64,000 nucleotides of DNA from Polyangiaceae bacterium (GTDB lineage Bacteria; Myxococcota_A; Polyangia; Polyangiales; Polyangiaceae): contig JAYSXP010000524.1 in assembly GCA_043717125.1 (NCBI GenBank), forward strand, positions 3,936 through 67,935. The letters are read 5' to 3'. Below the pieces are notes generated by a model that did not search any database, was not told where the DNA came from, and saw nothing but the letters and a program-made list of their open reading frames with translations. Made by a program: the position numbers and the translations under genes. Of this stretch, positions 49,376 through 64,000 are shown in pieces (the stretch's first letter is position 1; every line of letters begins with the position of its first letter).

Positions 49376-49945
49376 TTGTGGGTGGCTTGCGCCTGCATGC
49401 TCGGTCTCGTGGAGACGCGTTGTGGTCCCGCGACCACCGCGGAAAGAGCTCAAGCCGACATGGCTACCCTCCGCACAGAGACGACCACGGACAAGTTGCT
49501 CGACCGCGGCAAGGCTTTCGCGGCCATCGGGGATCACACACGCGCAGAGGAGTACCTCGCAGCGGCCCTCGACCAAGGTGCCGACCCACGTGAGACCTTA
49601 CCGCTGCTCCTCAACGTCTGCGTCCAGACGGGTCGATACCGGTCCGCGATCCAGCATGCCGAGAACCACCTGCGGAAGCACCCGGACGACGTGCGCACGC
49701 GCTTTGTCGTCGGAACGCTCTACGCTGCGATCGGCGAGACGAAAGACGCCAAGAGCAACCTGGAGACCGTCGTGAGCGCGCGTCCCGATGACTCGAAGGC
49801 GCACTACACGCTCGGCGTCCTCGCCCGCGACAGCGAGAACGACCTCGTCGGCGCCGACCGTCACTTCCGCGAATATCTGCGCATCGAGCCGAACGGGTCT
49901 CACGCCGAGGAAGCCCGCGCTTCGCTCCTGAAGAGGATGCCTTGA
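49376..49945 (+). CDS. TPR-repeat protein (TadD/pilotin-like)
   Basis: TPR-like helices (AHYTLGVL, FREYLRIEPNG..AEEAR); start uncertain (49313, 49376 or 49397). Confidence 0.72.
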   Translation: MWVACACMLGLVETRCGPATTAERAQADMATLRTETTTDKLLDRGKAFAAIGDHTRAEEYLAAALDQGADPRETLPLLLNVCVQTGRYRSAIQHAENHLRKHPDDVRTRFVVGTLYAAIGETKDAKSNLETVVSARPDDSKAHYTLGVLARDSENDLVGADRHFREYLRIEPNGSHAEEARASLLKRMP

Positions 49946-51090
49946 GCAGTGACGTCATCCCCAAAGAGGTCTTCGAGGAAACGCTCCTCCAGTTCCTCGC
50001 GCCGATCCGCCCGTTCCTCGATGACCCGGCGGTCAGCGACATCATGATCAACGGCCCCTTTCAGATCTACGTCGAAAAGAAGGGCCAGCTCCACCTCACG
50101 AACGCGCGCTTCGAGACGCGGGAAGCGCTCGTCGCCGCGCTCCGCAATGCTGCGCAGTTCGTCGGTAAGCACATCGACGAGCTCAAGCCGATCCTCGAAG
50201 GTCGCCTCCCGGATGGCTCGCGTATCGAGGCCGTCCTTCCGCCCGCCGCGCCCGACGGACCGTGCGTGTCGATTCGCCGGTTCTTCAAGGAGACACTCAC
50301 CGTCCAGCGCCTCGTGAACTTCGGCGCCCTCACGCCCGACGTCGCGAGCACACTTCAGGCGCTCGTCGTCTCGAAGCTCAACATCCTGATCGCGGGCGGT
50401 ACCGGAAGCGGCAAGACGTCGATGCTCAACGCGCTCTCGTCGTTCATCCCCGAGGGCGAGCGCGTGGTCGTCATCGAGGACTCGCGCGAGCTCCAGCTGC
50501 AGCGACAGCACATCTGCATGCTCGAAGCGCGCCCGCCGGATCCGAAGGGCCGCGGCGAGGTGACGATTCGCGATCTCTTCCGCGCGACGCTGCGTCTGCG
50601 CCCCGATCGCATCGTCGTCGGCGAAATCCGCGGCGGAGAGGCGCTCGATCTGATCCAGGCCATGACCTCGGGTCACGGTGGATGCATGTCGACGCTCCAC
50701 GCGACCTACCCGCGCGATACCACCTCGCGCCTCGAGACGATGGCGATGATGAGCGACGTCGAGATGCCGCTCACGGCGCTGCGAAGTCAGCTCGCCTCGG
50801 CGGTCAACATCATCTGTCAGGTCTCGCGCCTGCAGGACGGCAGCCGCAAGATCACGCACATCACCGAGGTGCTCGGCTTCGACCCCAACAAGGCAGAATA
50901 TTTGCTCCAGGACATCTTCGAGCGCCAGTACCACGGCTTCGACGACAAGGGCGCGATCCTCAGCGACATCGTTCCGTCGGGGATCTTGCCGCGATGCTTG
51001 CCGCAGCTGCACGAGCACGGCGTCGACTTGCCTGCGTCGGTGTACGAGGCAGCCAAGAACGCGGAGACCGGCCAGAATCGTTATGGCTAA
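49942..51090 (+). CDS. cpaF: second CpaF/TadA-family ATPase
   Basis: DIMING, GRLPDGSRI, GGTGSGKT, IEDSREL, RPDRIVVGE, MTSGH; TTG start overlapping the TPR gene stop. Confidence 0.92.
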   Translation: MSSDVIPKEVFEETLLQFLAPIRPFLDDPAVSDIMINGPFQIYVEKKGQLHLTNARFETREALVAALRNAAQFVGKHIDELKPILEGRLPDGSRIEAVLPPAAPDGPCVSIRRFFKETLTVQRLVNFGALTPDVASTLQALVVSKLNILIAGGTGSGKTSMLNALSSFIPEGERVVVIEDSRELQLQRQHICMLEARPPDPKGRGEVTIRDLFRATLRLRPDRIVVGEIRGGEALDLIQAMTSGHGGCMSTLHATYPRDTTSRLETMAMMSDVEMPLTALRSQLASAVNIICQVSRLQDGSRKITHITEVLGFDPNKAEYLLQDIFERQYHGFDDKGAILSDIVPSGILPRCLPQLHEHGVDLPASVYEAAKNAETGQNRYG

Positions 51091-52660
51091 TCCGCAGACG
51101 ACCCACGTCATCGAGATCGAGACGGGCATCGGAGAGCCCGCCTTCATCCCGCTTTCCATGGGTCATGAGCTCCAGCCCATCAGCGTCGGCAAGAAGGGCA
51201 TGTGGCGGATCGAGTCGGCGCGCGTGCTCGACGTACACGCGTTCGTCTACTTCGACGGGTCATCGCTGTTCTTGCAGAGCGCGGACGAGCAGAACGCCGC
51301 GAGCGTCGACGGCTACCGTGTCGGCAAGGCGTGGACCGAATTGCATTCACCATGCAAGATCGAGATCGGCAACGCGCGCCTGCGGTATCGGTCGCTGATC
51401 GCGGACGCCGACAACCAGCCCACGATGATGGCGCAGGCGCCTCCCGTGCAGGCGGGTCCTGGCGGGCCCGGCAGCCCGCTCGGTGGTCCCGGTCCGAGCG
51501 GCTCGAGGCCCGGCGGCGGCCCGGGCGCCTCGATGCCCGTCGCCGGCGCGCCTCCGCCTCCAGCCGGCAGCGCTCCATGGCTCTCGTTTCCGAAGGCAGA
51601 GCGTCCCTTCAAGCCGGGGGAGTTCTCCTCCGCCTCGGATACGGACGAGTCGACGCGCATCGCTCCGCTAGATGCGACCGGCGGAGGTCGCGTCGCGTCG
51701 GGCTCTCATCCGAGACCCGCCGCGGGGCAACCGGGCGACGACTTTTCGACGCGCTCCGAAGCCGTGCGCGTGATGCGCGGACAGAGCGGTGCCGTGCCGG
51801 CGATCGGAGGCCCGTTCGACGGAACGGGCATGCAAGGAGCGCCCGGCAATCCGATGCAATTGGGCGCGTTCCCGCAGCAAGGCTACCCGCCGCCGCAGCA
51901 GCAGTTCGCGAACCAGTTGTATCCGGGCGCGGCCGGCTCCGGCCAGTACGGTGTCGTCTCCGGACCGTCCGGTATGCCCGGACCGATGGACCCGAGCATG
52001 CCGCCGCCGGGTGGCTACGGCTCGATGACGCCCTTGGGCGGAATGCATCAGCCCGGTGCACTGCAGGGCGCGACGAACGACGCGAAGAAGAACACGTCGA
52101 TCCCGAAGATCGTCGCAAGCCTCCTCTTCATCGCGGGCAGCATCCTTTATCTCGCCGTGGACGACGACCCGCAGCCCGCGAAGAAGAAGCCCGTCGCCTC
52201 GGCCGACGCCGGCTCGGTTGGGACCGGGGTCGCAGTTGGCAACGGTACCGGCGCAGCGCCAGCAGACGCGAGTGCCGGCACGGCCGTTCCCCCCGTGATG
52301 GGACAAGCCCAGACCGTCGCGCCGGCGTGGCCGCCGGGAGTCCCCTGCCCTCCGCCGAACTGGCCCCCGAACACACCGCTCCCCTGCATGCCGAACGGCA
52401 TCAGCAGCACGCCCGATCGAAACCCTCCCGACAGGGGTGGCAAGGACGGCGGCGCCAGGAGCAGCTCCGACAAGGATGCGGGCACGCTCCCGGCCGGCTC
52501 CAAGACGCTCGAGCGTCAGGCTGTCGACTACGTGGCCGCGGGCGAGATTGCGAAGGCTGCTGCGGCCTACGAAGAGCTCGTGCGGCGTGACCCGAACAAC
52601 AAGGTCTACGCGGAGGCTGCGCGCATCCTACGCGGCAAGCTCGACGCCGGTACGCCGTAG
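51083..52660 (+). CDS. FHA-like / Pro-Gly-rich / TM / TPR protein
   Basis: ISVGK...VLDVH...VDG...IEIG FHA-like N-terminus, low-complexity linker, TM (IVASLLFIAGSILYL), C-terminal AAYEELVRRDPNN TPR-like. Confidence 0.65.
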   Translation: MANPQTTHVIEIETGIGEPAFIPLSMGHELQPISVGKKGMWRIESARVLDVHAFVYFDGSSLFLQSADEQNAASVDGYRVGKAWTELHSPCKIEIGNARLRYRSLIADADNQPTMMAQAPPVQAGPGGPGSPLGGPGPSGSRPGGGPGASMPVAGAPPPPAGSAPWLSFPKAERPFKPGEFSSASDTDESTRIAPLDATGGGRVASGSHPRPAAGQPGDDFSTRSEAVRVMRGQSGAVPAIGGPFDGTGMQGAPGNPMQLGAFPQQGYPPPQQQFANQLYPGAAGSGQYGVVSGPSGMPGPMDPSMPPPGGYGSMTPLGGMHQPGALQGATNDAKKNTSIPKIVASLLFIAGSILYLAVDDDPQPAKKKPVASADAGSVGTGVAVGNGTGAAPADASAGTAVPPVMGQAQTVAPAWPPGVPCPPPNWPPNTPLPCMPNGISSTPDRNPPDRGGKDGGARSSSDKDAGTLPAGSKTLERQAVDYVAAGEIAKAAAAYEELVRRDPNNKVYAEAARILRGKLDAGTP

Positions 52661-52721
52661 CCGGCGCGCGGCGCGGACCCGCGCTGACGATTCGCGCGCC
52701 AGTGCGACGACGAGTGAAAGA

Positions 52722-53588
52722 TCAGCGCGCGAGTGCGTGATCGGGATAGCGACGGCGCAGAACGAGCTCGGCACCGGCCGCCTCGTCTGCGCGGCCGAGC
52801 GCACGCAGCGCGCGAGCCTCGAGGCCGAGCTCCTCGGGCTCGAGCGAACGCGTGCCGAGTCTGCGCGTCGCCTGCACGAGCGAGAGGGCGCGCGCGGCGT
52901 CGCCGGCGACCAGCGCATTGCGCGCGGCGGTGAGGAGCCGCGCCTCCTGACCGAGATCTCCCGCCGGGCTCGCCACGGTGTTCGCGTTCGGCTTGGCGTC
53001 GACCTTCGGCTTGGCGTCGACCTTCGCCCTCGCGTCGGCGATCGCCTTGGCGTCGACCTTCGCCTTGGCGTCGGCGATCGCGATTTCGTCGGCGTCGTCC
53101 TGAACTTCCATGTCGACAGCGGACGCGGTGCTCGCGGTGTCTTGGGCCGGCGCAACGAGCACCGCCAGCTTCGCGGCGGGTGACGCCGCCGTTGGCGCCG
53201 TGACCGCGCTCGCCGCTCGCGTGCTCGCGTGCGACGCATCGGGCGTCGAGGTCAAACCCAAGGTCATCGCCACGACGACACCGAGCGCGGAGCTGACGGC
53301 ACCGAGCGCGACGCCGAGCGCGAGCAGCTTGGAACCGATCGCGAAGGCGGCTGGCGAGGCGGCGGCGGCAGAGGTCGCCGCCGTGCCTGCAGACGTGGAC
53401 GCCTGCGCAGCAGCAGCGGCAACGCCCGCGGTGCTGACCGACGGTACGAGCGTGAGCACCGTGGCGCCGGCGGCGATCCCGGTCGACACGGCGATCTTGC
53501 GGAAGAGCGCGTCGCGATCGGTCGAGTCGGGACCGTCGTCGCGACCCGCGGCGAAGAGAGCACGCGCGTCGGTCGGGGGAGCGCTCAT
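52722..53588 (-). CDS. putative anti-sigma factor (TM + C-terminal TPR-like domain)
   Basis: Coupled to the ECF sigma gene (ATGA); TM; C-terminal LGQEARLL.AAR.AL..GD...AL...YP motif. Confidence 0.72.
   Translation of the reverse strand: MSAPPTDARALFAAGRDDGPDSTDRDALFRKIAVSTGIAAGATVLTLVPSVSTAGVAAAAAQASTSAGTAATSAAAASPAAFAIGSKLLALGVALGAVSSALGVVVAMTLGLTSTPDASHASTRAASAVTAPTAASPAAKLAVLVAPAQDTASTASAVDMEVQDDADEIAIADAKAKVDAKAIADARAKVDAKPKVDAKPNANTVASPAGDLGQEARLLTAARNALVAGDAARALSLVQATRRLGTRSLEPEELGLEARALRALGRADEAAGAELVLRRRYPDHALAR
52985..53080. repeat. about five 18-bp imperfect coding repeats (DAKAKV/DAKPKV)
   Basis: cttggcgtcgaccttcg(g/c) units encoding DAKAKVDAKAIADARAKVDAKPKVDAKP. Confidence 0.75.
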
Positions 53589-54277
53589 CGGCCTGCCTCC
53601 TCGTCACGCGCCGTGTCGGCGCTCGAGAGCCGCGCGAGCTCCGCGTCGAGGTCGACGCGCGCGACCCGAAGGCGCGAGTAGACAGTATTCAGGGGCAATT
53701 CGAGCGTGCGCGCGATCTCCGGCGCCGTCATCTGCTCGATCTCGTGGAGGACGAGGACGGCGCGACGTCCCATGTCGATTGATCCGAGCGCGCGGTCGAG
53801 CAAGTCAAGAGCCTGCTTGCGCGCGACCACCGCGGCCTGCGGAGCCTCGATCGACTGCCGGTCCTGGGCGATGCCACCGTCGGGATCGACGGGATGACGT
53901 CTCCGATGTCGCCGCGCATCGGACGCGACGCGGAGCACAATCTGGAAAAGCCACGCGCGCGGCCCGTGTCCGCGGTCGGCGAACTCCTCCCAGCGTCGGT
54001 GGGCTACGACGAACACTTCCTGACACTTGTCCTCGACGTCGCGGTCCATGACGCCGAGCCGGCGAAGGTTTCTCCACACGAACGCGACATGCGCGTCGTA
54101 GACGGTCCGGAACTGTCGAGCGCGATCGGCGCGGTCGGGCGACAGCTCGCGAGCGACGACGACGCTCTTGATGCCGCTTTCGGGGGCCTCGGGCGCAACG
54201 CGCGCGTCGGCGCACTCGAGGGCAGCGATGATCTCCGCAGAGCTGTGGAAAGAAACACTGTCGTATGCAGCGCTCAT
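53585..54277 (-). CDS. ECF-family RNA polymerase sigma factor
   Basis: FVWRNLRRLGV...VED..QEVF, RAWLF.I, RRAVLVLHEIE.M...EIA..L..PLNTVYSRLR.AR. Confidence 0.92.
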   Translation of the reverse strand: MSAAYDSVSFHSSAEIIAALECADARVAPEAPESGIKSVVVARELSPDRADRARQFRTVYDAHVAFVWRNLRRLGVMDRDVEDKCQEVFVVAHRRWEEFADRGHGPRAWLFQIVLRVASDARRHRRRHPVDPDGGIAQDRQSIEAPQAAVVARKQALDLLDRALGSIDMGRRAVLVLHEIEQMTAPEIARTLELPLNTVYSRLRVARVDLDAELARLSSADTARDEEAGR

Positions 54278-55368
54278 GGCAACCTCACGGAGACGCCGAT
54301 CTCGGCTGCGGCGAAGAGCAACGGAGGCTGGCCTCCGTCAGGGAGCAGAGGAGAGAGAAGAAGGTTCGCGCCAAGCAGCCCGCGCACTTCCAGCGCGACA
54401 CCCCACCCGAGCTCCCCACGGAGTGTCGCCGAAGGGCCCACACCGATGCGACCGGCGTTCGCGCCTCGTGCGGACGGTCCGGTTTGCGTCGTGACGACGC
54501 CGCCCTCCAGGCCGGCACAAAGGTCGGCCTCGATCCCGCGACGCTCGATGTAGTTCCCGGGGACGCGCCGGCAGATGTCGGCGCGGCCCGCGAGCTGGTT
54601 GATGACCGTGGGCGACGCCTGCGTCGACCGACCGACCGCCAGCGACGGCCGAAAGATCCACGCGTTCGCGAACTCGACGGCGATGAAAGGTGAGATGCCG
54701 CTCACTGCACCCGAAGCCATCGCCCCATTCCGCAGGTAGACGGTCGTGCCCACCTCGAACGCTCGTGGAGCACGGGTCGTCTCGATACCCTCGGCGAGCG
54801 ACGCCGTGTCGCGGGTGGGACGCGACCCTAAGGAGAGTGCCACAGCGGACGCCGCCGGCGAGCTCTCACCGCCGAGTGCCGGAGGAGGGGCCGTGGGCGC
54901 GCTCCCGTCGTCGTCCTTCGCGCGGAGCATCTCGGCGTCGAGGACGAGCGAAGCCCACGCGCCGACGGCGCGTGCGAGCGGCACGCAGGTGCGCGCAGTC
55001 CGGTCGGTCAGCGTCCTCTGCGCAACGATGGTGCCGGCGTCATCGACGATGACGGCCTCGACCGACGTGCCCGCAGGCTTCGACGTGGCGGGTCCGTCCG
55101 ACGCGCGCGCCGGCCCGACGCTCATCCTCACGGTCCAGTGGGCGAGCGACGAGGCAGGGCTGGTCGGAGGTGCCCCACGCGGGCGGCGGCCCCCATGAGC
55201 GGGGGCGCTGGCCGCGACCAGCGCCTCGCCCAGTGCGGCGCGCGCGCGGTCACGGTCCGAGCACTCGGCTCGATCCTCGACGACCATCTCGGCTTCGACG
55301 ACGACGGCTTCCACGACATCCACAGAAGCTGACGATGGCCGGTCGTGCGCGTCTCCGTCGCGCCACAC
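54274..55368 (-). CDS. hypothetical protein upstream of ECF sigma (possible outer-membrane beta-rich C-terminus)
   Basis: Coupled to the sigma gene (ATGA); C...C N-domain, C-terminal beta-strands ending IGVSVRLP; 5' end unclear, no signal peptide seen. Confidence 0.55.
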   Translation of the reverse strand: MWRDGDAHDRPSSASVDVVEAVVVEAEMVVEDRAECSDRDRARAALGEALVAASAPAHGGRRPRGAPPTSPASSLAHWTVRMSVGPARASDGPATSKPAGTSVEAVIVDDAGTIVAQRTLTDRTARTCVPLARAVGAWASLVLDAEMLRAKDDDGSAPTAPPPALGGESSPAASAVALSLGSRPTRDTASLAEGIETTRAPRAFEVGTTVYLRNGAMASGAVSGISPFIAVEFANAWIFRPSLAVGRSTQASPTVINQLAGRADICRRVPGNYIERRGIEADLCAGLEGGVVTTQTGPSARGANAGRIGVGPSATLRGELGWGVALEVRGLLGANLLLSPLLPDGGQPPLLFAAAEIGVSVRLP

Positions 55369-55758
55369 TGTGAATTTGCACTGCTGCTGAACCGATCCAT
55401 CGATGGAAAGGTACGCATGTACCCACGCTTTCCGCGTACCCGCGCGAGTCGTGGATCGGCGAGGAGGTGGTGGCTGGCGCCCCTAGGGGCGTAGGCGGTG
55501 GCCCCCTAGGACCTTCCATGATCCATGAGGGTGCAGGGGTTTGCGACGACGCCATCGAGGTCGAGACGCGACGCGGCCCCAGTGGAAAATCTCCGACGTG
55601 ATGTGCCTTGCGAAGCGCGAAAGAACGGCACCGGCGGATTTTTCGCGTTCGACCATGGTTGACGGCGCATCCATCGACGGAGGAGGACGGGATCCAGAGC
55701 GAACAAAACATACATGTAGGTTATCAATTTCCTTCAGGATTTCCGATGCTGCGCAACC

Positions 55759-55774
55759 TGGCCCGCGACCTGCT
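55759..55774 (+). promoter_or_regulatory. sigma54 (-24/-12) promoter of the cytochrome lipoprotein operon
   Basis: TGGCCC-gcgac-CTGCT with correct GG-N10-GC spacing, about 30 nt before the ATG; AT-rich TATCAA (IHF-like) tract upstream. Confidence 0.6.
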
Positions 55775-55802
55775 TCCTTCCTCGCGCTCGCGAGGAACTT
55801 AC

Positions 55803-56999
55803 ATGGCGAACAACCGTCTCACCGCACTGACTCTCGGACTCGCAATCGCCGCGGCAGGAGCGGCGTGCTCGGACGACGCTGCCGACAAGCTTGGCGGCCG
55901 TAATACCGGCGCCAGCAGCGGGAGCAGCGGCGGAAGTAGCGGAGCCAGCGGTGACGGGGGCCCAGGCTCGAATCCCGGCGGGCCCCCTGCCGAGGAGCTC
56001 CTGTTTCGCGCTGTAGAGCCCGATCTCAAGGCGAAGTGCGGTAACGCCTGCCACGATCTCGCCACGTACAAGCCCACTCCGCCCGCGTTTCTTGCGGGGC
56101 CTGACGCCTACAAGTCGATCAAGGCCGAGCCTGGCGCCATCGTCGCCGATTACTACCAGAGCAGCCTGCTCCAGAAGGGCTCTCACGCGGGTCCCGCCGT
56201 CGGCAGCGATCCGACGTTCGAGGCGAAGGTCATCGAGTGGCTGAAGATGGAATCCGCGGTCATCCAGAGCCAAAAGAAGCCGTCGACGGACGCCGTCGCG
56301 CTCGTCGCTGGCCCCAACGACCTCGACATGACGAAGGCGTGTGTCGGCGGCCTCACCGGCGTGCACCTGAAATTCGATGCTTCGCTCATCGGCGGCATCC
56401 TTTCGCTCAACAACATCAAGGTGGTGGCGGCGGCGGGCACCGACGTCCACGTCTACAAACCGAAGCTCATTAAAGTGCTCGCGAAGGCCAACGCGAGCCA
56501 GCAGACCGAGATCCCCGACGGTGCCGAGACCTTCTCGAATACCGATCAAACCGTGCCCGGCGGCGCCGAGACGGTGCTGGCCCCCGGCTCCGCCTTCATC
56601 ACGGCCGCAGGCTGGACGCCCTTCGATTTCGCGAGCGACAAGGTCCGTATCGAGGTCGAGAAGCTCGAGCCGGGCAAGGTGCAGGTCATCGAGGCCCCGA
56701 AGGTCTGCAAGAGCGTCGCGAACTTCACCGCGAACGTCCTGCCGAGCCTCCGTAACGCCGGCGGGTTCAACCTGAATTGCGCGGGCTGCCACGGCAACGG
56801 CCTCGCGGGGCTCTCGCTCAATGGCGCGGACCAGGCCGTCGTGTGCAACCAGGTCCTCGGGAAGCTGAACGCGGCCGACATCACGAAGAGCCTGATGATC
56901 ACCCATCTCGCGGCGAACGGCGGGCACGGCGGCGGCCCCATCACGGATACCGCCGGCTGGACGACCTTCTGGACGAACAACAAGGCCGTCTTCTACTGA
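55803..56999 (+). CDS. lipoprotein with two candidate c-type heme motifs
   Basis: Lipobox AGAAC; CGNACH (CX3CH) and CAGCH; downstream His in KGSHAG and GGHGGG as possible axial ligands; GAGGA RBS. Confidence 0.72.
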   Translation: MANNRLTALTLGLAIAAAGAACSDDAADKLGGRNTGASSGSSGGSSGASGDGGPGSNPGGPPAEELLFRAVEPDLKAKCGNACHDLATYKPTPPAFLAGPDAYKSIKAEPGAIVADYYQSSLLQKGSHAGPAVGSDPTFEAKVIEWLKMESAVIQSQKKPSTDAVALVAGPNDLDMTKACVGGLTGVHLKFDASLIGGILSLNNIKVVAAAGTDVHVYKPKLIKVLAKANASQQTEIPDGAETFSNTDQTVPGGAETVLAPGSAFITAAGWTPFDFASDKVRIEVEKLEPGKVQVIEAPKVCKSVANFTANVLPSLRNAGGFNLNCAGCHGNGLAGLSLNGADQAVVCNQVLGKLNAADITKSLMITHLAANGGHGGGPITDTAGWTTFWTNNKAVFY

Positions 57000-57074
57000 A
57001 GTTTTTCGGCGCGGCCGCTGGCTCGCTGATTGCAGCTCTACGATTCACTCATGTCGAAGAAAGGTAGGCAGACG

Positions 57075-58331
57075 ATGCGACTGCGAAACTCCGCGTCAAC
57101 GCTGGCTGCGTTCGGCCTTGCGGTCGCCCTCTCGGGGTGCGGTAGCTCCGAGGATCCGAACACGGTCAACAACGGCAGCAGCGGCGATCCGAGCAACCCC
57201 GGGTACAACCCGCCGGCAGGCGCGGGCACCGCGACGACCCCCAAGACACCCGAAGAGCAGGTCAGGCAGATCCTGGATGCGCGCAAGGCGGATTACGGCG
57301 AGGCCCTCCGCACCGCGAGCCTCAAGCTCCGCGACGCGCTCCCGAGCATGGCCGAGATCAAGACGATCGAAGCCGCTCCGGACGACGCCGCGAAGAAGGT
57401 CGCCTACGAGAAGCTCGTCGACGACATGCTCGCCGGCCCCGAGTTCACGCTCGTGATGGTGAAGTTCTGGAAGGACGCGTTCCGCACCGGTCAGGTCGGC
57501 GCGGTCCAGATGGGCGCCGCCAACCGCGACACCGCCGCGACGTTCGCCGCGCAGGTCGTCGTCGAGAGCCGCAACTACAGCGAGCTCTTCACGCAGACGG
57601 CCAACACCTGCCCGACCTACGATCCGGTCGCCAAGACGTTCACGCCGGCCGCGTGCGCAGCGGGCCCCGTGGCCACTCCGACCGCGGGCGTCCTCACCGA
57701 CCCCGGCCTGATGTCCCAGTACTTCGCGAACATGGCCTTCCGCCGCGTTCGCTTCATCCAGGAGACCTTCGCGTGCTCGAAGTTCCCCGCGGAGTACTCG
57801 GCCACGCCGAAGCCGCTCGGTAATGGCACGTTCACCGGCGCGTTCCCGTACGAGAGCATCACCGGCAAGGTCAACACGCCGACGGCGAAGATCGATTTTC
57901 AGGACACGTCGGCCGTCATCTGCGCGAACTGCCACGTCAATCTGAACCGCTTGGCGCCGATGTTCACGAACTTCGACGACAAGGGCTTCCTCCAGGCGGC
58001 CAGCCAGGTCGAAGTGCCGATCCCGGGTGCGCCGAAGGCGGCTCGCATCGACTACCTTCCCGCGGCCGAGGGTTACGCCTGGCGCGCCGGCAAGCCCGTC
58101 ACTGACATTCCGACGCTCGGCGCCGCCATCGCGGCGGACCCCGAGGTGGGTCGCTGCGCGGTCAACCGCGTGTGGAACTACGCGATGTCGCGCGGCGACA
58201 TCGTCAACGACCTCGCCACGATCCCGAACGCCGTCACCGACGGCTTCACCAAGGACTTCGCCGCGAATGGCGGGAAGCTCAAAGAAACCATCCGCGGAAT
58301 CTTCAAGAGCGAAGATTTCGTGAAGTTCTAA
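57075..58331 (+). CDS. heme-motif lipoprotein resembling planctomycete-type cytochrome DUF1549/DUF1588/DUF1585 proteins
   Basis: Lipobox LSGC; LRTASLKL...PS..E, VDDMLA.PEF, AGVLT, CANCH...APMFTNFD, C-terminal RCAVNRVWNYAM...F..NG..LK..IR.IF.S..F. Confidence 0.7.
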   Translation: MRLRNSASTLAAFGLAVALSGCGSSEDPNTVNNGSSGDPSNPGYNPPAGAGTATTPKTPEEQVRQILDARKADYGEALRTASLKLRDALPSMAEIKTIEAAPDDAAKKVAYEKLVDDMLAGPEFTLVMVKFWKDAFRTGQVGAVQMGAANRDTAATFAAQVVVESRNYSELFTQTANTCPTYDPVAKTFTPAACAAGPVATPTAGVLTDPGLMSQYFANMAFRRVRFIQETFACSKFPAEYSATPKPLGNGTFTGAFPYESITGKVNTPTAKIDFQDTSAVICANCHVNLNRLAPMFTNFDDKGFLQAASQVEVPIPGAPKAARIDYLPAAEGYAWRAGKPVTDIPTLGAAIAADPEVGRCAVNRVWNYAMSRGDIVNDLATIPNAVTDGFTKDFAANGGKLKETIRGIFKSEDFVKF

Positions 58332-58355
58332 AGCAGGGAAGGGAGTCAGAAAATC

Positions 58356-59057
58356 ATGAAACGCATTGCTCTCACCCTGATTGCCGTCGCAGGGGTCGCA
58401 CTCGCGGCCTGTAGCGACGGAACGTCCGACAGCCTCTCGAACGGCGGCGGCGCTGCTGGCGACCCGAACGGGACCGCCGGTAACGAGAACACCACGTTCA
58501 ATCACTCGAACGACCCCGGTGGCGCGGCTCCCGGAGCCGACTTCCAGCCGCCTGAGCCCGGCCAGGTCAAGCTGATCGGCTCTCCCGAGATCTCGTCGCG
58601 CCTCCACGCGTGCGGTAAGCTTTCGATCAAGTCGCTCGGCGACATCCTCACGAGTCGCGGCCTCACGGGCGGCGGCACGCGTCCGGCAGGCGCGCTCAGC
58701 GGCCAGGCGATCTTCAGTCAGGGCGCGACGGCTGCAGCCTTCGGTGGCGCCAACTACAACGGTCGCGTTCCGGAAGCGCCGTTCGCCTCCACGTCCGCCA
58801 TGGCGAAGATGTTCGATATCTTCACGATGGCTTCGTACGATGCGGTTACCGCGAACTGGACCTCGCCGGCATGTCCGGGTGTGAAGGTCCTCGGCGCCGA
58901 CGGCAAGTTCACTCAGGACGGTCTCACCTGCCTCATGGGCAAGACGGCTCACCCCGAGCATCTCGCGATCGCGAACGACGCCATCGCAAAGAACCCCACC
59001 GACGGCGCCAAGATCGCCATTGCTGCGCTGCTCTCCGCCGCGCACACCTGCCAGTAA
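58356..59057 (+). CDS. hypothetical Cys-containing lipoprotein
   Basis: Lipobox LAAC; TF.H, RLHACGK, TCLMG and terminal AAHTC. Confidence 0.72.
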   Translation: MKRIALTLIAVAGVALAACSDGTSDSLSNGGGAAGDPNGTAGNENTTFNHSNDPGGAAPGADFQPPEPGQVKLIGSPEISSRLHACGKLSIKSLGDILTSRGLTGGGTRPAGALSGQAIFSQGATAAAFGGANYNGRVPEAPFASTSAMAKMFDIFTMASYDAVTANWTSPACPGVKVLGADGKFTQDGLTCLMGKTAHPEHLAIANDAIAKNPTDGAKIAIAALLSAAHTCQ

Positions 59058-59069
59058 GGAGTTCGAGTC

Positions 59070-60461
59070 ATGGTCGACCAGCGATTGAAAGAGCTCCGTG
59101 GCCCGGGACGCCGTGAATTTCTCCGTTGGAGCGCGACGGTTGCAGCGTGTCTCGGTCTCGAGCGCGCCCGCTTCCTGAACGTGCTCGGCGATACGGCGGG
59201 CATTGCCGCCGCTGACACCGCAGCGTGTGCGAACACGAACCGCCTCATCAGCATCGTCGACGGCAACGGTGGCTTCTCGAACTGGACGCAGGTGTTCCCG
59301 TTCACGAAGGTGATCGGCTCGACAAACGCCGCGTATTCGCACTACGCGCTCGGCAAGGGCATCCCAGGGACGGGCTTCGACAAGCCGTGGACCCACGCAC
59401 CGGATTCCCCCTGGCAGACGAACTCCAAGTGGAAGATGTCGGCGTTCGTCGCGGGCAACAACGAGACGCACACGGCCGCGCCCGTCAGCGCGATCAGCCT
59501 CGGCGGGAACGGGATGCTGGCCTCGGCCGCGGCCATCCAGCAGGCGAACCCCACGCTGCTTCCGGTCCTCGCGGTCGGCGGCATCCAGTTCGGTGCAGCG
59601 CCGGGAGCTCCCGCCGTCGCGGCCGTCGGTGCAGCGAACCAGCTCGTCGATCTGTTCAACAGCGCGGCGTCTCGCGCGCTCTTGCAGCAGCCCGAGAATG
59701 GCGGACTCGCCGAGGCGTACTACAAGGCATTCATCGGCCTCAACGCGGCTGCAGGTCGGACGACGATCGCGAAGCAGTACGGCGTCGGCAAGGTCTCGAT
59801 GAACCTGCTCTCGAAGAACCTCGCGGCGCAGCTCACGCCAACCGCGAGCGATCAGGCTCTGTTCGGCCTCACCGGCACCACGCCGGGCGCAGTCACGAAC
59901 ATGTCGAACGCGATGATCACGACCGTGAAGGCCTTCTCTCTCGGCCTCACTTCGATGCTCGTCATGCGCGGCTTCAACAATGACCCGCACGGGATGTTCG
60001 CCAACGGCGACGCGATGGCGACGACCACCGCGGTGGCGATGGGCAAGATGCTCAACGGCCTTCACGACCTCGCGAAGTCGAAGGCGGACCCGTCGTGCTC
60101 GGCCAAGACGCTCGCGGACAGCATCGTGATGTCCATGAGCGGCGATACGTTCAAGGCGCCCTTCAACCGCAACGGCTGGGGCGACGGCACCCCGAACGGC
60201 TCGAGCCTCCTCTACGTCATGGGTGCTGGTCACCTCAAGACGGGCTGGTTCGGCGACATGGATCCGGCGGCCGGCGCGGCCGGCTGGGACCAGGCGAGCG
60301 GTGCCACGGGCGGCGCGTACACCGGTCGCGGAGCTGAGCTCGGCACATCGGCAGCGGCAGCGCTGCTCTTCGCGGTCTCGAAGGGCGACACCCGCCGCGT
60401 GCGCGACTTTTACAACGGCAAGCCGATCGATGGCGTGACCAACATCAACCTCACGGGCTGA
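59070..60461 (+). CDS. Tat-exported protein, DUF1501/DUF1552-like
   Basis: Twin-arginine GRREFLRW signal; AAGGAG RBS; ETH and NDPH His motifs; last gene of the operon. Confidence 0.62.
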   Translation: MVDQRLKELRGPGRREFLRWSATVAACLGLERARFLNVLGDTAGIAAADTAACANTNRLISIVDGNGGFSNWTQVFPFTKVIGSTNAAYSHYALGKGIPGTGFDKPWTHAPDSPWQTNSKWKMSAFVAGNNETHTAAPVSAISLGGNGMLASAAAIQQANPTLLPVLAVGGIQFGAAPGAPAVAAVGAANQLVDLFNSAASRALLQQPENGGLAEAYYKAFIGLNAAAGRTTIAKQYGVGKVSMNLLSKNLAAQLTPTASDQALFGLTGTTPGAVTNMSNAMITTVKAFSLGLTSMLVMRGFNNDPHGMFANGDAMATTTAVAMGKMLNGLHDLAKSKADPSCSAKTLADSIVMSMSGDTFKAPFNRNGWGDGTPNGSSLLYVMGAGHLKTGWFGDMDPAAGAAGWDQASGATGGAYTGRGAELGTSAAAALLFAVSKGDTRRVRDFYNGKPIDGVTNINLTG

Positions 60462-60480
60462 TCGTCATTCGCGAAACGAC

Positions 60481-60523
60481 CGAGAAACCCTCGCTTCGGC
60501 AAGAAGCGGGGGTTTCGCGTTTA
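60481..60523. terminator. intrinsic terminator hairpin between convergent operons
   Basis: GAAACCCTCGCTTC-ggcaa-GAAGCGGGGGTTTC followed by gcgtttat. Confidence 0.75.
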
Positions 60524-60540
60524 TAGCCGTCGCGAGGCGC

Positions 60541-61179
60541 CTACGGAAAATCGGTGGCGGTCTGGCAACTGCGGAGCGCGTTTGCGGAGAGCTTTGCACG
60601 CTGCGCCAGCGGGATTGGCGTTCCGTCGCCCTGGACGACCGGGATCTGCAGCCAAGCAACGACGCAACGGTAACCAGGGTCGTCCTCGGCCATCGCAGGG
60701 CCGCCCTTGTGACGCTCGATCTTGAGCGGCTTGCGCAAAAAGAGCAGCTGGTTTGGGTTCTCGCCCTGCCGCGCCATGAGCCGGGACATCTCCTCCGGCT
60801 CGAGCGAGACGAGCGCCTGGAAGTTCGCGCGCTGCTCCTCGGGCTGCGTCGGCTGCTGACCCGAGACGAGGCTTCCGTCCTGGAGCGTGTAGAGGCGATA
60901 GCCCTCGCGGCTGTAGATGCGGTACGCGCGGCCCGGCTGACCGTGACAATCGAGCGAGCCGCAGCGGCGCGTGAGGTACGCGTCGACGCTCGCAACGTAC
61001 GTGGCGAAGTCGGGCGTGATCACGACGGTGAGGCGGTTCTCGTCCGGCGCCGACGCGCACGCCGCCATCGCGAGCAGGCCGCAGGCCGCGCCTCCGACTC
61101 CGAGCACCACCGCCGCGCGGATCGCGTTCACAGCCGGTCCTCCGGGCATAGCGTGACGGGCGGGTCGTCGTTCGGACAC
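60541..61179 (-). CDS. lipoprotein with atypical CX4CH motif
   Basis: Lipobox MAAC; RRCGSLDCHG and LRKP....HKGG; likely start GTG (VNAIRA) near the upstream stop. Confidence 0.68.
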   Translation of the reverse strand: MSERRPARHAMPGGPAVNAIRAAVVLGVGGAACGLLAMAACASAPDENRLTVVITPDFATYVASVDAYLTRRCGSLDCHGQPGRAYRIYSREGYRLYTLQDGSLVSGQQPTQPEEQRANFQALVSLEPEEMSRLMARQGENPNQLLFLRKPLKIERHKGGPAMAEDDPGYRCVVAWLQIPVVQGDGTPIPLAQRAKLSANALRSCQTATDFP

Positions 61180-61802
61180 TGCGCCGGGATGGGCGGCTTC
61201 GCGATGTCGACCTCGCTCTCCGTATCATACAAGCGAATTTGGCCGGGTGAGCCAAAGTCGCGGAGCCCGAGGATGTGACACGTCGCACAGGAAGCCTCGC
61301 GGCCGATGTGACTCGACATGCGGCGCGCCCGAATCGACTTTTCGGCGTCGGGCCCCTTGCCCTGCGGATCGATGACGCGTTCGACCGACACGAGCAGCGG
61401 GAACTTCAGGTTCTGGTAGTCCGCGCTCTTGACGAAGAAATTGCCGTTGCAGTTCGTGACGAAGCACTGCGTCGTCTTCTCGGGTCCGCCGATGCGCACA
61501 TAGGCCTTGTCGACGCGGCGGTCGTAGCGGTCGGGCCCCCAGAAGATCGTGCCGGCGAGGACGAACACCGAGTCCGCCGGACCGGCAGCTGAGTGGCAGA
61601 GCGCGCACGGCTCGCCGGGCCGGTGGTAGGCGCTCTCCGGCGGGTAGAGCGCGCCCTGCTCGCCGCCGAGGTTGTTCACGCCGGCGCGGTGCACCGGGTC
61701 GAGATTGCACGAGCTGCCCATGCTCCCGACGAGAGCCACACCGGCGAAGAGCATGAGGCTCTTGCCGAGTCGTTCGCGAAGCGTGTGAGGGGGACGATTC
61801 AT
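61128..61802 (-). CDS. di-heme-motif lipoprotein
   Basis: Signal ...GSSC; HRPGEPCALCH and SCATCH; TNCNGNF. Confidence 0.72.
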   Translation of the reverse strand: MNRPPHTLRERLGKSLMLFAGVALVGSMGSSCNLDPVHRAGVNNLGGEQGALYPPESAYHRPGEPCALCHSAAGPADSVFVLAGTIFWGPDRYDRRVDKAYVRIGGPEKTTQCFVTNCNGNFFVKSADYQNLKFPLLVSVERVIDPQGKGPDAEKSIRARRMSSHIGREASCATCHILGLRDFGSPGQIRLYDTESEVDIAKPPIPAQCPNDDPPVTLCPEDRL

Positions 61803-61803
61803 C

Positions 61804-63978
61804 TCAAAACTCCACGTCAAATCCTACCGAGCCGTACACGGCGGTGCGAGTGGTCACGTAGAGAGACTTCAGATAGCGCGTGTACATGACGTCGCCGACC
61901 AGCGTGATGCCGTATTTTATTTCACCTTCGGGCTCGCCAAGGCCGATGCGTACGCCGCCACCGCCCGTTCCAGTCAATAGGGGCGCGAGCTCGCGATCGC
62001 CAGTCCGGTAGAGCGGAAGCGTGATGCCGCCGTTGGGATCGAGGAGCGCAGAATAGGCGAGCTGGAAGAAATTCACTCCCGACTGGGCGTGGGCGCGCAG
62101 GTGCGGCCAGACGCGGAGGTGGCGCGAGAGATCGACCATGTAACGAGCGTCCGTAGACGTCGCCTTGAGGCCCCACGTGTCGTAGTAGAAGCGCTGCTCG
62201 AGGCGGAGCGTCGCGTTGTTGAGGCGCTTGTTGAAGCGCGCGCCGATGGCGAAGCGGTCGCGCTCGGTCGGGAGCTGCTCGAGCGGCCGAACCGGAAGCC
62301 GCGTACGGTTCACGAGGTCGACCGTGGCACCGTTGGGCACGAAGGGCGCGACCTTGTCCGGGTCGAACATCGGGACGTAGCGGTAAGGCTGAGATTGGTC
62401 GCCGCGCTCGAACTGAGCCGTTCCGCCGATGAGCAGGATGGCAGTCGGCGACATGATGAACGTGATGCCGGCTTCGACCTCGTGGGTGGTGAGCGCGCCT
62501 TTCAGCTCGTTGTAGTCGTGCTGGAAATTCTTCGGGCCACGACCGATACGGTCGTACGCATACGAGTACCCGAGCGTCGGCGTGATGAGCTTGTCGTTCA
62601 GGTCCGCGGTCAGGCGGAGGCCGCCGCTGTACGAGACATAGTCGACGGCTGACGAGATGCTGCCCGTGGCCTGCGCTCCGTAGAGGCCGGGCTTGTAGCC
62701 GGCCGTCAGGCCGCCGCCGTAACGGAACTCCTCGAAAGGTGGCGACGCGGTCGAGACGATGTCCGGCGATGCGGCGCTGACCGCATCGAGGATGAAATTA
62801 CCACCGACGTTCCAGCCGGCCGTCGGCGACGCGATCGACGCATTGATGCCCGGCGTGTACACGGCCACCGCGTTCGTGTCGGAGTATGCGGAGAGATCGA
62901 CCGCGGCGCGGATGACGATGTTCTTGCGGTTCTGTGGAAGGCACTTCTGGACGTCCTCCTGGCTCTTCGCCGCAAGCATGCACTTGATCTGGCCGGGCGT
63001 GATGTAGTCGTTCGCCGGCGGCTTCAGCGTGATGCGGACGGTGATGAACTCCTTCTCCTTGATGTCGTACTCCTCGTCGAACGTCGCAGGAAAGCCGTTC
63101 ACGCCGCCCTCGGCGACGACCTTGTGCTTGCCCGGATCGACCGAGAACTTCTTCGTCAGAGCATCGAGCGGAACCGGACGATCATCGAATTTTACCGAGA
63201 GATCCTGGACGCCCGGCGGCGGCACGAACGTGACGTGAGGGATGCGATCGAGCAGCTCCTTCACGCGCGTGCGCGCGACCTTCATCACGCCGGCGTCCTT
63301 CTTCTGGATGCCGAGTTCGAGGGCGCGCTGCGCGTCCTTCAGAGCGTCGACGAGCTTGCCGCTGCGGCTCTCGCACGACGCGAGGTGGAGACGGGTGCGC
63401 GGCTGCTCCTCGATCTTGAGGGCCGCCTTGTCCTTCTCGATGCACTCGTCGAGGCGCCCCTCCTGGTCGGCCTTGAGCGCCTCCATCATCAGCTTGATCG
63501 CGGCGGCGACGCCTCCGCCGGCGGCCGGAGTCTCTTCGTCACCGGCGCCGGCGGCCTCTCTACCCGAGCCCGTCGCCTCCTCGAACTGAGCCTTCATCGC
63601 CGGCGTGGCGTTGCCGGGGAGCTTGGCGTTCGGATCGGAGGACGCAGCGCTCTTGAAGTTCTGCTTCGCCTCGTCGGCCTGGCCGAGCTGCGACGAGACC
63701 ATGCCGAGCGCGACGTAGACCTCGCCTTTGACGGCCGGCCCGCAGCCCTTCTTGAGGCAGTTGCCGAGCTGGTCCTGGAGCTTTTTCTTCGCGGGCCCGA
63801 GGCTACTTGGGTAGTCCTCGGTCATGATCTGCTGCACCGCCTCGCGGATGGCGGCATCCTCGCCCGCAGCGCTGGCCGTCACGGGAGCCAAGAAAAGCGC
63901 GAGCCCGAGGCCGAGAGCGAGGACCACAGCCGCGAGGTCGCGTCCCAGACGTGCGCGCGTGAGCGGGCGCAGGATCAC
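61804..63978 (-). CDS. DUF3570 outer-membrane beta-barrel with N-terminal TPR/PEGA-like extension
   Basis: Signal peptide; TPR-like helices; YSDT..V.V.TP, DAVSAASPD.VSTAS, DY.S, GDQSQPYRYV, EQLP..R.R, RFYYDTWG; terminal Phe (GFDVEF). Confidence 0.8.
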   Translation of the reverse strand: MILRPLTRARLGRDLAAVVLALGLGLALFLAPVTASAAGEDAAIREAVQQIMTEDYPSSLGPAKKKLQDQLGNCLKKGCGPAVKGEVYVALGMVSSQLGQADEAKQNFKSAASSDPNAKLPGNATPAMKAQFEEATGSGREAAGAGDEETPAAGGGVAAAIKLMMEALKADQEGRLDECIEKDKAALKIEEQPRTRLHLASCESRSGKLVDALKDAQRALELGIQKKDAGVMKVARTRVKELLDRIPHVTFVPPPGVQDLSVKFDDRPVPLDALTKKFSVDPGKHKVVAEGGVNGFPATFDEEYDIKEKEFITVRITLKPPANDYITPGQIKCMLAAKSQEDVQKCLPQNRKNIVIRAAVDLSAYSDTNAVAVYTPGINASIASPTAGWNVGGNFILDAVSAASPDIVSTASPPFEEFRYGGGLTAGYKPGLYGAQATGSISSAVDYVSYSGGLRLTADLNDKLITPTLGYSYAYDRIGRGPKNFQHDYNELKGALTTHEVEAGITFIMSPTAILLIGGTAQFERGDQSQPYRYVPMFDPDKVAPFVPNGATVDLVNRTRLPVRPLEQLPTERDRFAIGARFNKRLNNATLRLEQRFYYDTWGLKATSTDARYMVDLSRHLRVWPHLRAHAQSGVNFFQLAYSALLDPNGGITLPLYRTGDRELAPLLTGTGGGGVRIGLGEPEGEIKYGITLVGDVMYTRYLKSLYVTTRTAVYGSVGFDVEF

Positions 63979-64000
63979 GCGCCGATGCTACCGGAAGTCG

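What the first reader, a model, noticed from the sequence alone, without database searches (positions are those of the whole stretch)
55803..63978. Convergent heme-lipoprotein / Tat protein / DUF3570 beta-barrel cluster: candidate uncharacterised envelope redox system
Seen: seven genes, all predicted exported. The plus operon has a CX3CH+CXXCH lipoprotein, a CXXCH DUF1549/1588/1585-like lipoprotein, a Cys lipoprotein and a Tat substrate. The minus operon has a DUF3570 barrel, a 2xCXXCH lipoprotein and a CX4CH lipoprotein. The two operons meet at one hairpin. Known: DUF3570 usually occurs with DUF4266, a thioredoxin and ApbE flavinylation genes; none of these lies downstream of it here. Inference: a porin-cytochrome-like or cofactor-loading module linking an outer-membrane barrel to small c-type cytochromes and a metal-binding Tat enzyme.
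Basis: partly seen in the sequence, partly recalled or inferred. Interest (0 to 1): 0.8.

Follow-up and report, generated by a model that had tools for sequence, protein, structure and literature searches.

The report
Haem-capped outer-membrane barrel beside cytochrome operon
Two facing gene sets in a predatory myxobacterium encode an outer-membrane channel predicted to carry a small haem protein on its outer face and a separate cytochrome-plus-enzyme module; they sit side by side in many but not all relatives and likely move electrons across the cell envelope, for a purpose still untested.

Summary
The seven genes, their motifs and the hairpin are real. An eighth gene, DUF4266, lies just beyond the window; apbE and tlpA are not nearby. 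There are two modules.

Minus strand: DUF4266, a DUF3570 protein modelled as a 16-strand outer-membrane barrel, a dihaem lipoprotein (g6) and a CX4CH lipoprotein (g5). g5 is predicted to bind the barrel's long loops (score 0.73, best control 0.00). The two flavin-attachment motifs lack their glycine.

Plus strand: a dihaem lipoprotein built from g5-type domains, a split PSCyt2/PSD-like pair (g2, g3; fused in 3 relatives) and a Tat protein with an alkaline-phosphatase fold, distantly DUF1501-like.

The modules are neighbours in 40 of 67 relatives (18 of 35 genera), with two different barrel clades in two layouts, but each also occurs alone. Best reading: a haem-extended variant of the DUF3570/DUF4266 envelope redox system, loosely coupled to a PSCyt/DUF1501-type redox enzyme. 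It is not an MtrAB-type porin-cytochrome. The scan noted this cluster before on other DNA (e1-9582041, e1-9505595). I found it in no paper.

The parts
55803..56999 (+). g1: lipoprotein with two homologous haem c domains (CX3CH with H128; CX2CH with H375; bis-His ligation inferred) around a middle domain; same domain family as g5
   Evidence: hhalign g1N-g1C prob 97%, g5-g1C 83%, g5-g1N 63%; motif spacing varies CX2/CX3/CX4CH across genera
57075..58331 (+). g2: monohaem lipoprotein of the PSCyt2/PSCyt3/PSD2 (DUF1549/1588/1585) kind
   Evidence: PSCyt2 30.6 bits vs cut-off 29.8; PSCyt3, PSCyt2, PSD2 hits in 24, 23, 22 of 24 members
58356..59057 (+). g3: Cys-rich lipoprotein without Pfam match; likely the split-off C-terminal partner of g2
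   Evidence: g2-g3 fusions in 3 of 150 listed relatives and g1N-g3 fusions in 2; nearest Atlas models with a family are PSCyt/PSD proteins, TM 0.41-0.50, under the naming bar
59070..60461 (+). g4: predicted Tat substrate with alkaline-phosphatase/sulfatase fold, distant DUF1501-like; invariant H134, D305, H307, D359, W370, D372
   Evidence: model pLDDT 82; Z 12.1, rmsd 4.1, 241 aligned to choline sulfatase; hhalign to a rough DUF1501 profile prob 56%, E 1e-4, reversed control E 0.39; Atlas DUF1501 lead
60484..60516 (.). 14-bp hairpin between the convergent operons; likely bidirectional terminator
   Evidence: z -3.24; 1 of 200 shuffles as good
60541..61131 (-). g5: CX4CH monohaem lipoprotein (likely start GTG 61131 overlapping the g6 stop; longest ORF starts 61179); predicted cap on the barrel's long loops
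   Evidence: C, C, H and distal H invariant in 49 aligned sequences; complex 0.73 vs best control 0.00
61128..61802 (-). g6: dihaem lipoprotein (2 x CXXCH; invariant H60 and M162 as likely axial ligands), with a possible carboxypeptidase-regulatory-like middle domain
   Evidence: CarboxypepD_reg hits in 4 of 31 members
61804..63978 (-). g7: N-terminal TPR-containing region plus DUF3570, modelled as a 16-strand outer-membrane barrel (aa 352-724)
   Evidence: model pLDDT 92, 16 long strands; Z 19.2, rmsd 3.8, 289 aligned to BcsC
62743..62787 (-). two tandem ApbE-like motifs lacking the canonical Gly: D398-A-V-S-A-A-S and D406-I-V-S-T-A-S, at the end of strand 3 and in loop 2
   Evidence: motif definition from PMC12052999 and PMC8238504 (passages)
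63979..64000 (-). part of the 56-bp spacer between g7 and the first gene of the minus operon, a 70-aa DUF4266 lipoprotein ending GGGGGCGCN that lies just outside the window (G000:C473:67970-68182; 64035-64247 if window numbering is extended)
   Evidence: (E 3.5e-13)

Best explanation
The locus holds two conserved modules that likely work as one loosely coupled envelope electron-transfer chain: a predicted 16-strand outer-membrane barrel (DUF3570) predicted to be capped outside by the haem lipoprotein g5, and a cytochrome-enzyme unit (g1-g4) that would take electrons from it. Inferred steps: (1) reducing power from the periplasmic thiol pool (DsbD is elsewhere in the genome) reaches the C-terminal CxC of DUF4266, which would sit in or under the barrel; (2) it crosses the membrane through one or two FMN groups attached in trans by the unlinked ApbE at the D-x-x-S-x-A-S sites, or through the thiols alone if those sites are no longer modified; (3) g5, with the dihaem g6, carries the electrons at the surface; (4) g1, made of two g5-type domains, relays them to the g2/g3 haem protein, which serves the metal site of the Tat enzyme g4. 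Shown here: genes, motif conservation, domain homologies, fusions and gene linkage. Predicted by models: the barrel, the g4 fold and the barrel-g5 contact. Not shown: haem or flavin loading, direction of flow, substrate, and any contact between the two modules. My odds: barrel-g5 complex about 0.75; some functional coupling of the two operons about 0.55; the whole chain as written about 0.4.
For: Barrel-g5 complex: score 0.73 (runs 0.70, 0.73, 0.78), best of 3 controls 0.00; that mark was reached by 116 of 157 solved and 2 of 215 mismatched pairs (counts only rough with my own alignments); runs agree in at least 82% of contacts, partner pLDDT at least 79. Neither family has a solved relative by sequence. 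The interface is barrel residues 183-217 and 285-306, the long loops, which are the outer face by standard barrel topology (own knowledge). Linkage: barrel or DUF4266 within the fetched 20 kb of g4 in 40 of 67 genomes (61 informative), 18 of 35 genera, including 13 of 13 informative genomes of six other families, against roughly 1-2% by random placement. The linked barrels fall in two separate clades with SH-aLRT 100 and lie downstream/convergent in one group and mostly upstream in the other; one clade is rejected, p-AU 3e-55. g1 and g5 share a domain. All 56 g4-positive genomes of 301 also have DUF4266, against 164 of the other 245 (read). All 94 distinct barrel matches keep a D-x-x-[ST]-x-A-[ST] site, and Gly-to-Ala leaves about 50% flavinylation in a model substrate (PMC12052999, passage). 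ApbE is in 78 of 80 genomes; cytochrome c assembly and DsbD genes in 5 of 5.
Against: The link is facultative: 21 of 61 informative genomes and 14 informative genera have g1-g4 with no barrel or DUF4266 in the fetched stretch; only 25 of 80 g2 loci are linked, and 0 of 5 Haliangiales/Kofleriaceae-named loci, of which 2 have full flanks. This genome has three more barrel-g6-g5 sets without g1-g4. DUF4266 is in 220 of 301 genomes but g4 in only 56, so most barrels need no g1-g4. Kin are not independent and genome size confounds the co-occurrence. Only 12 of 94 barrel matches have the canonical Gly, and a clade without haem neighbours also lacks it, so loss of Gly does not track haem partners. 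ApbE already has known-type substrates in all 5 well-assembled genomes checked: a canonical SGAS barrel in 4 and a DUF2271 in the fifth. No thioredoxin-like WCxxC gene lies within 3.5 kb upstream of DUF4266 in 21 of 21 linked loci (four of them have under 3.5 kb of flank). If g5 is outside and g4 periplasmic, step 4 needs g1-g4 at the surface or the flow reversed.
Confidence: 0.42

Rival explanations
1. Two independent systems. The barrel-DUF4266-g6-g5 unit is a self-contained envelope redox device and g1-g4 is a self-contained PSCyt/DUF1501-type enzyme; they are neighbours through ancestry and clustering of co-regulated haem lipoprotein genes, and exchange nothing.
For: Each occurs alone; convergent operons with a hairpin between them; up to 8 kb of other genes inserted between them within the genus.
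Against: Linkage with two different barrel clades in two layouts across seven families; in G049 the g5+g6-type barrel is on another contig and in G214 about 20 kb away, while the other clade is the direct neighbour; shared haem domain.
Confidence: 0.3
2. The barrel is an import channel with a lipoprotein lid, in the manner of SusCD or BtuBG (names recalled; BtuB-BtuG and SusC appear among fold hits). g5/g6 bind and reduce or oxidise an outside solute such as a metal complex, and g1-g4 process it in the periplasm.
For: g5 is predicted on the outer loops like a lid; an ECF sigma and anti-sigma-like pair lies divergent from g1 in the genus and beside barrel modules at two other loci; 25 canonical clusters carry a VIT1 iron transporter (PMC8238504, passage).
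Against: 16 strands with no plug domain in the model; no TonB-dependent receptor or transporter among the 12 window proteins scanned; no ECF match beside g1 in the loci outside the genus examined.
Confidence: 0.16
3. A polymer export and modification system: g7 (TPR plus 16-strand barrel) works like BcsC/PgaA/PelB and g4 like a BcsG/EptA-type transferase.
For: Top fold hits of the barrel are BcsC, a polysaccharide secretin (4y25) and PelB, Z 18.6-19.2; g4 matches BcsG and EptA at Z 9.5-10.
Against: Sequence identity 5-9%, and CymA ties at Z 18.6; two of the four barrels in this genome and the second linked clade have no TPR region; six haem sites and the CxC peptide are unexplained; no synthase among the 12 window proteins scanned.
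Confidence: 0.07

Closest known systems
DsbD / thioredoxin-like / DUF4266 / ApbE-flavinylated DUF3570 clusters (Meheust et al. 2021, PMC8238504; passages read)
   Same: DUF4266 with C-terminal CxC directly before DUF3570; two tandem D-x-x-[ST]-x-A-[ST] sites, at the place where canonical SGAS barrels of the same order have theirs.
   Different: No apbE, thioredoxin-like or dsbD gene in the cluster; both motifs lack the Gly; two haem lipoproteins follow the barrel; N-terminal TPR region; a PSCyt/DUF1501-like operon next door. The passages read do not describe DUF3570 as a barrel or mention haem partners.
PSCyt1/PSCyt2/PSD1 + DUF1501 modules of PVC bacteria (PMC3542564 and PMC5615132; passages read)
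   Same: A PSCyt2-like monohaem protein upstream of a twin-arginine protein with DUF1501-like core motifs; proposed there to be a membrane-targeted electron-transfer module of unknown function.
   Different: Split into three lipoproteins (g1, g2, g3); g4 is too divergent for Pfam DUF1501 and has Gly where DUF1501 has the His of its D-H motif (weak alignment); no carbohydrate-binding modules found; frequent link to an outer-membrane barrel.
Porin-cytochrome conduits (MtrAB, Geobacter Pcc, Verrucomicrobia porin-MHC; PMC5615132 passages)
   Same: Outer-membrane barrel encoded with c-type cytochromes, one predicted at the outer face.
   Different: 16 strands rather than 20 or more; mono- and dihaem partners rather than 8-10 haems; g5 is predicted on the loops, not inside the lumen; MtrB ranks 42nd among fold hits (Z 13.2, rmsd 8.4).
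Alkaline phosphatase / sulfatase superfamily
   Same: g4 fold, Z up to 12.1 with 55 chains at Z 8 or more.
   Different: 5-12% identity; the first strand ends in GxGG with no conserved Asp, and no conserved Cys/Ser nucleophile motif is evident in the alignment; activity unknown.

Membership tests
ApbE/DsbD-type DUF3570-DUF4266 flavinylation cluster | DUF3570 domain | tested here: met
   PF12094 71.8 bits, cut-off 25
ApbE/DsbD-type DUF3570-DUF4266 flavinylation cluster | adjacent DUF4266 with C-terminal CxC | tested here: met
   56 bp upstream, ends GCGCN
ApbE/DsbD-type DUF3570-DUF4266 flavinylation cluster | two [S/T]GA[S/T] motifs | tested here: not met
   SAAS and STAS; Asp, first Ser, Ala and acceptor Ser kept
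ApbE/DsbD-type DUF3570-DUF4266 flavinylation cluster | apbE in the gene cluster | tested here: not met
   own apbE pieces on contigs C492 and C377; none of the apbE places in 78 genomes falls in a fetched barrel locus (one search read by eye)
ApbE/DsbD-type DUF3570-DUF4266 flavinylation cluster | thioredoxin-like gene or dsbD in the cluster | tested here: not met
   0 of 21 linked loci have a WCxxC ORF within 3.5 kb upstream of DUF4266 (motif test only); dsbD on another contig; own contig ends 439 bp past the window
ApbE/DsbD-type DUF3570-DUF4266 flavinylation cluster | covalent FMN on the barrel | not testable with these tools
   needs co-expression with ApbE or mass spectrometry
Porin-multihaem cytochrome conduit (MtrAB/Pcc) | outer-membrane barrel encoded with c-type cytochrome genes | tested here: met
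Porin-multihaem cytochrome conduit (MtrAB/Pcc) | barrel of 20 or more strands with a multihaem (8-10) cytochrome inside | tested here: not met
   16 strands; at most two haem motifs per protein; g5 on loops
PSCyt/PSD + DUF1501 module | PSCyt2 (DUF1549) haem protein | tested here: met
   30.6 bits vs 29.8; 23 of 24 members hit
PSCyt/PSD + DUF1501 module | PSD1 (DUF1553) domain | tested here: inconclusive
   E 0.06 in g2; g3 vs PSD1-like profiles prob 0.1-3.8%; g2-g3 fusions exist
PSCyt/PSD + DUF1501 module | adjacent protein scoring as Pfam DUF1501 | tested here: not met
   0 of 32 g4 homologues hit PF07394 at E 0.1; remote likeness only
PSCyt/PSD + DUF1501 module | twin-arginine signal on the DUF1501-like protein | tested here: inconclusive
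   RR followed by hydrophobic residues in 28 of 32 aligned sequences; weak TAT_signal hits in 21 of 32; h-region atypical
Alkaline phosphatase superfamily | alpha/beta core fold | tested here: met
   Z 12.1, rmsd 3.9-4.1, 233-244 aligned; Foldseek E 2e-4 to a sulfatase
Alkaline phosphatase superfamily | canonical metal ligands and nucleophile | tested here: inconclusive
BcsC/PgaA/PelB polysaccharide secretin | TPR region plus 16-strand barrel | tested here: met
BcsC/PgaA/PelB polysaccharide secretin | polysaccharide synthase genes in the locus | tested here: inconclusive
   none among 12 window proteins from 49942-63978; the rest of the window was not scanned

The most novel reading that the evidence does not exclude
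A new type of trans-outer-membrane wire: a narrow 16-strand barrel that passes electrons by thiol (DUF4266) and flavin to surface mono- and dihaem lipoproteins, and that is the missing electron source or sink for the widespread, uncharacterised PSCyt/DUF1501 enzymes, recruited twice in Polyangiales.
Probability: 0.3. Interest if true: 0.85.

Novelty: new variant of a known kind. Interest (0 to 1): 0.62.

Why it matters
DUF3570/DUF4266 and PSCyt/DUF1501 are two common envelope systems with no known function. This locus ties them together and gives a concrete, testable structure: a haem lipoprotein on the outer loops of a DUF3570 barrel. If right, electrons can cross the outer membrane without a multihaem wire, in a group of myxobacteria not known for it (own knowledge). 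A cultured strain carries the linked locus (L219, Labilithrix luteola DSM 27648), so haem staining, flavinylation and pull-downs are feasible.

Tried and rejected
NCBIfam names none of g1-g7. Pfam names no member of the g3, g4 or g5 alignments; g6 gives mostly generic haem-motif hits. No solved structure matches g4, g5 or the barrel by sequence. g4 against single DUF1501, DUF1501-like and HXXSHH proteins was not significant (E 0.09-0.22). g3 against PSD1-like profiles was inconclusive. The idea that loss of the motif Gly marks haem-partnered barrels was rejected, because a haem-less clade lacks it too. The idea that the variant barrels must be ApbE's only substrates was rejected: FMN_bind was not found in 5 of 5 genomes, but each has a canonical barrel or DUF2271. 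No sigma-70 promoter was found. Expression: one RNA run held 5% of the words; its contigs cover parts of g1-g4 at mostly under 99% identity and little of g5-g7; contigs of relatives cannot show expression or rank genes, so this is not used. The careful tree search did not finish; trees are quick searches with SH-aLRT only (one search gave no tree). No complex of g1/g2 with g4, g5 or g6, or of DUF4266 with the barrel, was tested (one job only). g4 was not searched against the 50% representative library; g3 was.
Full report
WHAT IS THERE. The window is part of contig C473 of a 6.6-Mb, 77% complete, 68% GC genome; close homologues of g4 carry Labilithrix or Myxococcaceae labels, so the organism is a Polyangiales myxobacterium (inference). 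The seven ORFs, the motifs and the hairpin are as described. Genes within each operon are 1-75 bp apart or overlap. The contig runs 439 bp past the window and holds a DUF4266 gene ending GCGCN, 56 bp upstream of g7. ApbE and DsbD are on other contigs.

MODULE A, MINUS STRAND. The C-terminal 373 residues of g7 fold with pLDDT 92 into 16 strands, long loops on one side and short turns on the other, ending in Phe; the best fold matches are outer-membrane barrels (BcsC Z 19.2, rmsd 3.8; the secretin 4y25, PelB and CymA 18.6), and MtrB is far down (Z 13.2, rmsd 8.4). PMC8238504 (passages) showed that DUF3570 is flavinylated at two [S/T]GA[S/T] motifs and usually lies with apbE, a thioredoxin-like gene and DUF4266. 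Here the motifs read DAVSAAS and DIVSTAS. All 94 distinct barrel matches collected keep at least one D-x-x-[ST]-x-A-[ST]; 12 have the Gly. A review reports that Gly-to-Ala leaves about half the flavinylation in a model substrate (PMC12052999, passage), so modification in trans is possible but unproven. g5 has an invariant CX4CH plus a distal His in 49 aligned sequences; g6 has two invariant CXXCH plus invariant His and Met. The barrel-g6-g5 order recurs at three more places in this genome, none with g1-g4 on the same contig, and at all three barrels of G313. Of 40 high-scoring DUF4266 loci taken without regard to g4, 37 had a barrel and 11 of those had a g5-type gene within 6 kb (these 40 were picked from the top 150 of 589 matches, so they are not a random sample). 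The one complex job, barrel plus g5, scored 0.73 against a best control of 0.00; the mark was reached by 116 of 157 solved and 2 of 215 mismatched pairs (rough for my own alignments); runs agree in at least 82% of contacts and partner pLDDT is at least 79. The model supports binding; it does not show it. The contact is on loops 183-217 and 285-306, which by the usual topology face outward (own knowledge), so g5 would be a surface cytochrome.

MODULE B, PLUS STRAND. g1-g2-g3-g4 keeps its order in Polyangiales and in Haliangiales/Kofleriaceae-named records; g4 was found in 56 of 301 genomes of the order. g1 has two homologous haem domains (prob 97%) of the same family as g5 (83% and 63%); its first motif varies between CX2CH, CX3CH and CX4CH while Cys and His stay. 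g2 is PSCyt2/PSCyt3/PSD2-like. g3 has no family, but 3 of the 150 listed relatives are clean g2-g3 fusions and 2 are g1N-g3 fusions (a g3-g4 join in P0330 looks like a frameshift and is not counted). g4 folds (pLDDT 82) as an alkaline-phosphatase/sulfatase superfamily protein (Z 12.1; Foldseek E 2e-4). It aligns weakly with a rough DUF1501 profile built from 21 ORFs, some of them probably mis-picked (prob 56%, E 1e-4; reversed control E 0.39), and 16 of 30 Atlas hits for a homologue fall in clusters carrying DUF1501 (best such cluster: 42% of members). Module B therefore works like a split PSCyt/PSD + DUF1501 unit (PMC3542564 and PMC5615132, passages), though g4 fails the Pfam test.

ARE THEY ONE SYSTEM? 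I counted stretches of up to 20 kb around g4 in 71 loci from 67 genomes (left out: seven divergent g4 paralogue loci L041-L046 and L050, two contig-end loci L048-L049, the own genome, two fragmentary hits and eight g4-positive genomes that I did not fetch). A barrel or DUF4266 lies in the stretch in 40 genomes; 61 are informative. By group: 18 of 20 in the own genus (a 19th, G010, has the module just beyond the stretch, L061); 9 genomes in 7 other genera of the own family; none in 14 further informative genera; 13 of 13 informative genomes in six other families. For several of the last group I shifted the stretch after seeing DUF4266 coordinates, which may favour finding the link. Random placement would give about 1-2%. 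In the own family the neighbour is the SAAS/TAAS barrel with g6 and g5, downstream and usually convergent; in the other families it is a different clade (TSAS..TAAT), with a g5-like gene and DUF4266 mostly upstream of g1. Both clades have SH-aLRT 100; holding the linked barrels together is rejected (p-AU 3e-55; 35 of the 90 rows, LG+G4, group named after an earlier tree was seen). This fits two recruitments or one barrel replacement; no root was established. Against a fixed unit: only 25 of 80 g2 loci from a separate scan are linked, with four Polyangium genome records (L251, L253-L255) and 5 Haliangiales/Kofleriaceae-named loci unlinked (this set overlaps the first). All 56 g4-positive genomes have DUF4266 somewhere, against 164 of 245 others (tallies include two unpublished genomes, G154 and G325; confounded by kinship and genome size).

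MECHANISM. I commit to a thiol/flavin/haem path across the outer membrane ending on g5/g6, with g1 relaying electrons to the g2/g3/g4 enzyme (0.42). Rivals: independent neighbours (0.30), lidded import channel with periplasmic processing (0.16), polymer export (0.07). Direction and substrate are inferred, not shown.

LITERATURE. Seven full-text searches: DUF3570 occurs in 5 papers (4 listed); in the listings and passages seen, none describes haem partners or a link to DUF1501/PSCyt genes. I read passages only of PMC8238504, PMC5615132, PMC3542564, PMC12052999, PMC11334425 (no DUF3570 mention) and 10.1101/2023.06.07.544157. I did not open supplements; the cluster tables of PMC8238504 could list such loci. 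Most subscription journals are not covered. The scan's own notes describe the same cluster or its barrel triad in other genomes; I saw them after my tests and they are not independent support.

VERDICT. A real, conserved and apparently undescribed variant joining two known but unexplained envelope systems. The firmest new result is the predicted barrel-g5 complex; the coupling of the two operons is probable but facultative. Interest 0.62.

Noticed in passing
window 52722-55368 (minus): A 364-aa protein, an ECF sigma factor and an anti-sigma-like protein lie divergent from g1 and are kept there in most genomes of the genus. A similar sigma/FecR-like triad sits beside barrel modules at G000:C351 and L202 (the FecR label is my reading).
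   Followed up: partly
window 49942-52660 (plus): TadA/CpaF-like secretion ATPase followed by a Pro/Gly-rich protein with weak FHA and TPR hits; the second gene is conserved next to the locus in the genus.
   Followed up: no
G000:C351:8265-9212: A three-motif haem lipoprotein (CAGCH, CNQCH, CNKCH) lies directly upstream of DUF4266 in a paralogous barrel operon; g6-like pieces also occur alone on C158 and C406.
   Followed up: no
L107, L108, L110-L112, L114, L142: A separate DUF3570 clade (single TSAS site, no haem neighbours) lies in a fixed context after a UvrB-like gene (label by eye) and a 600-770-aa protein.
   Followed up: partly
L103-L106, L109, L113: Another barrel clade is flanked by one or two CX4CH lipoproteins, mostly followed by a CXXCH protein of about 250 aa.
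   Followed up: partly
L034:2835-5213, L035:2818-5685: In the upstream layout the g5-like gene is followed by a long CAVCH protein with a C-terminal GCGC, hydrophobic, Arg-rich tail resembling MYXO-CTERM (pattern from 10.1101/2023.06.07.544157 passages).
   Followed up: no
G019, G132, G155, G081, G313: ApbE is present but no FMN_bind domain was found in any of these five well-assembled genomes; DUF3570 and DUF2271 may be the main ApbE substrates in Polyangiales.
   Followed up: partly
P0041 Atlas hits: Two of the three best clusters for a g4 homologue are commonest in Bdellovibrionota, another predatory group; their gene context was not examined.
   Followed up: no
L044-L046, L050: Distant g4 paralogues lack the twin-arginine start, three of them with a lipoprotein-type N-terminus, and stand without g1-g3 matches.
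   Followed up: no
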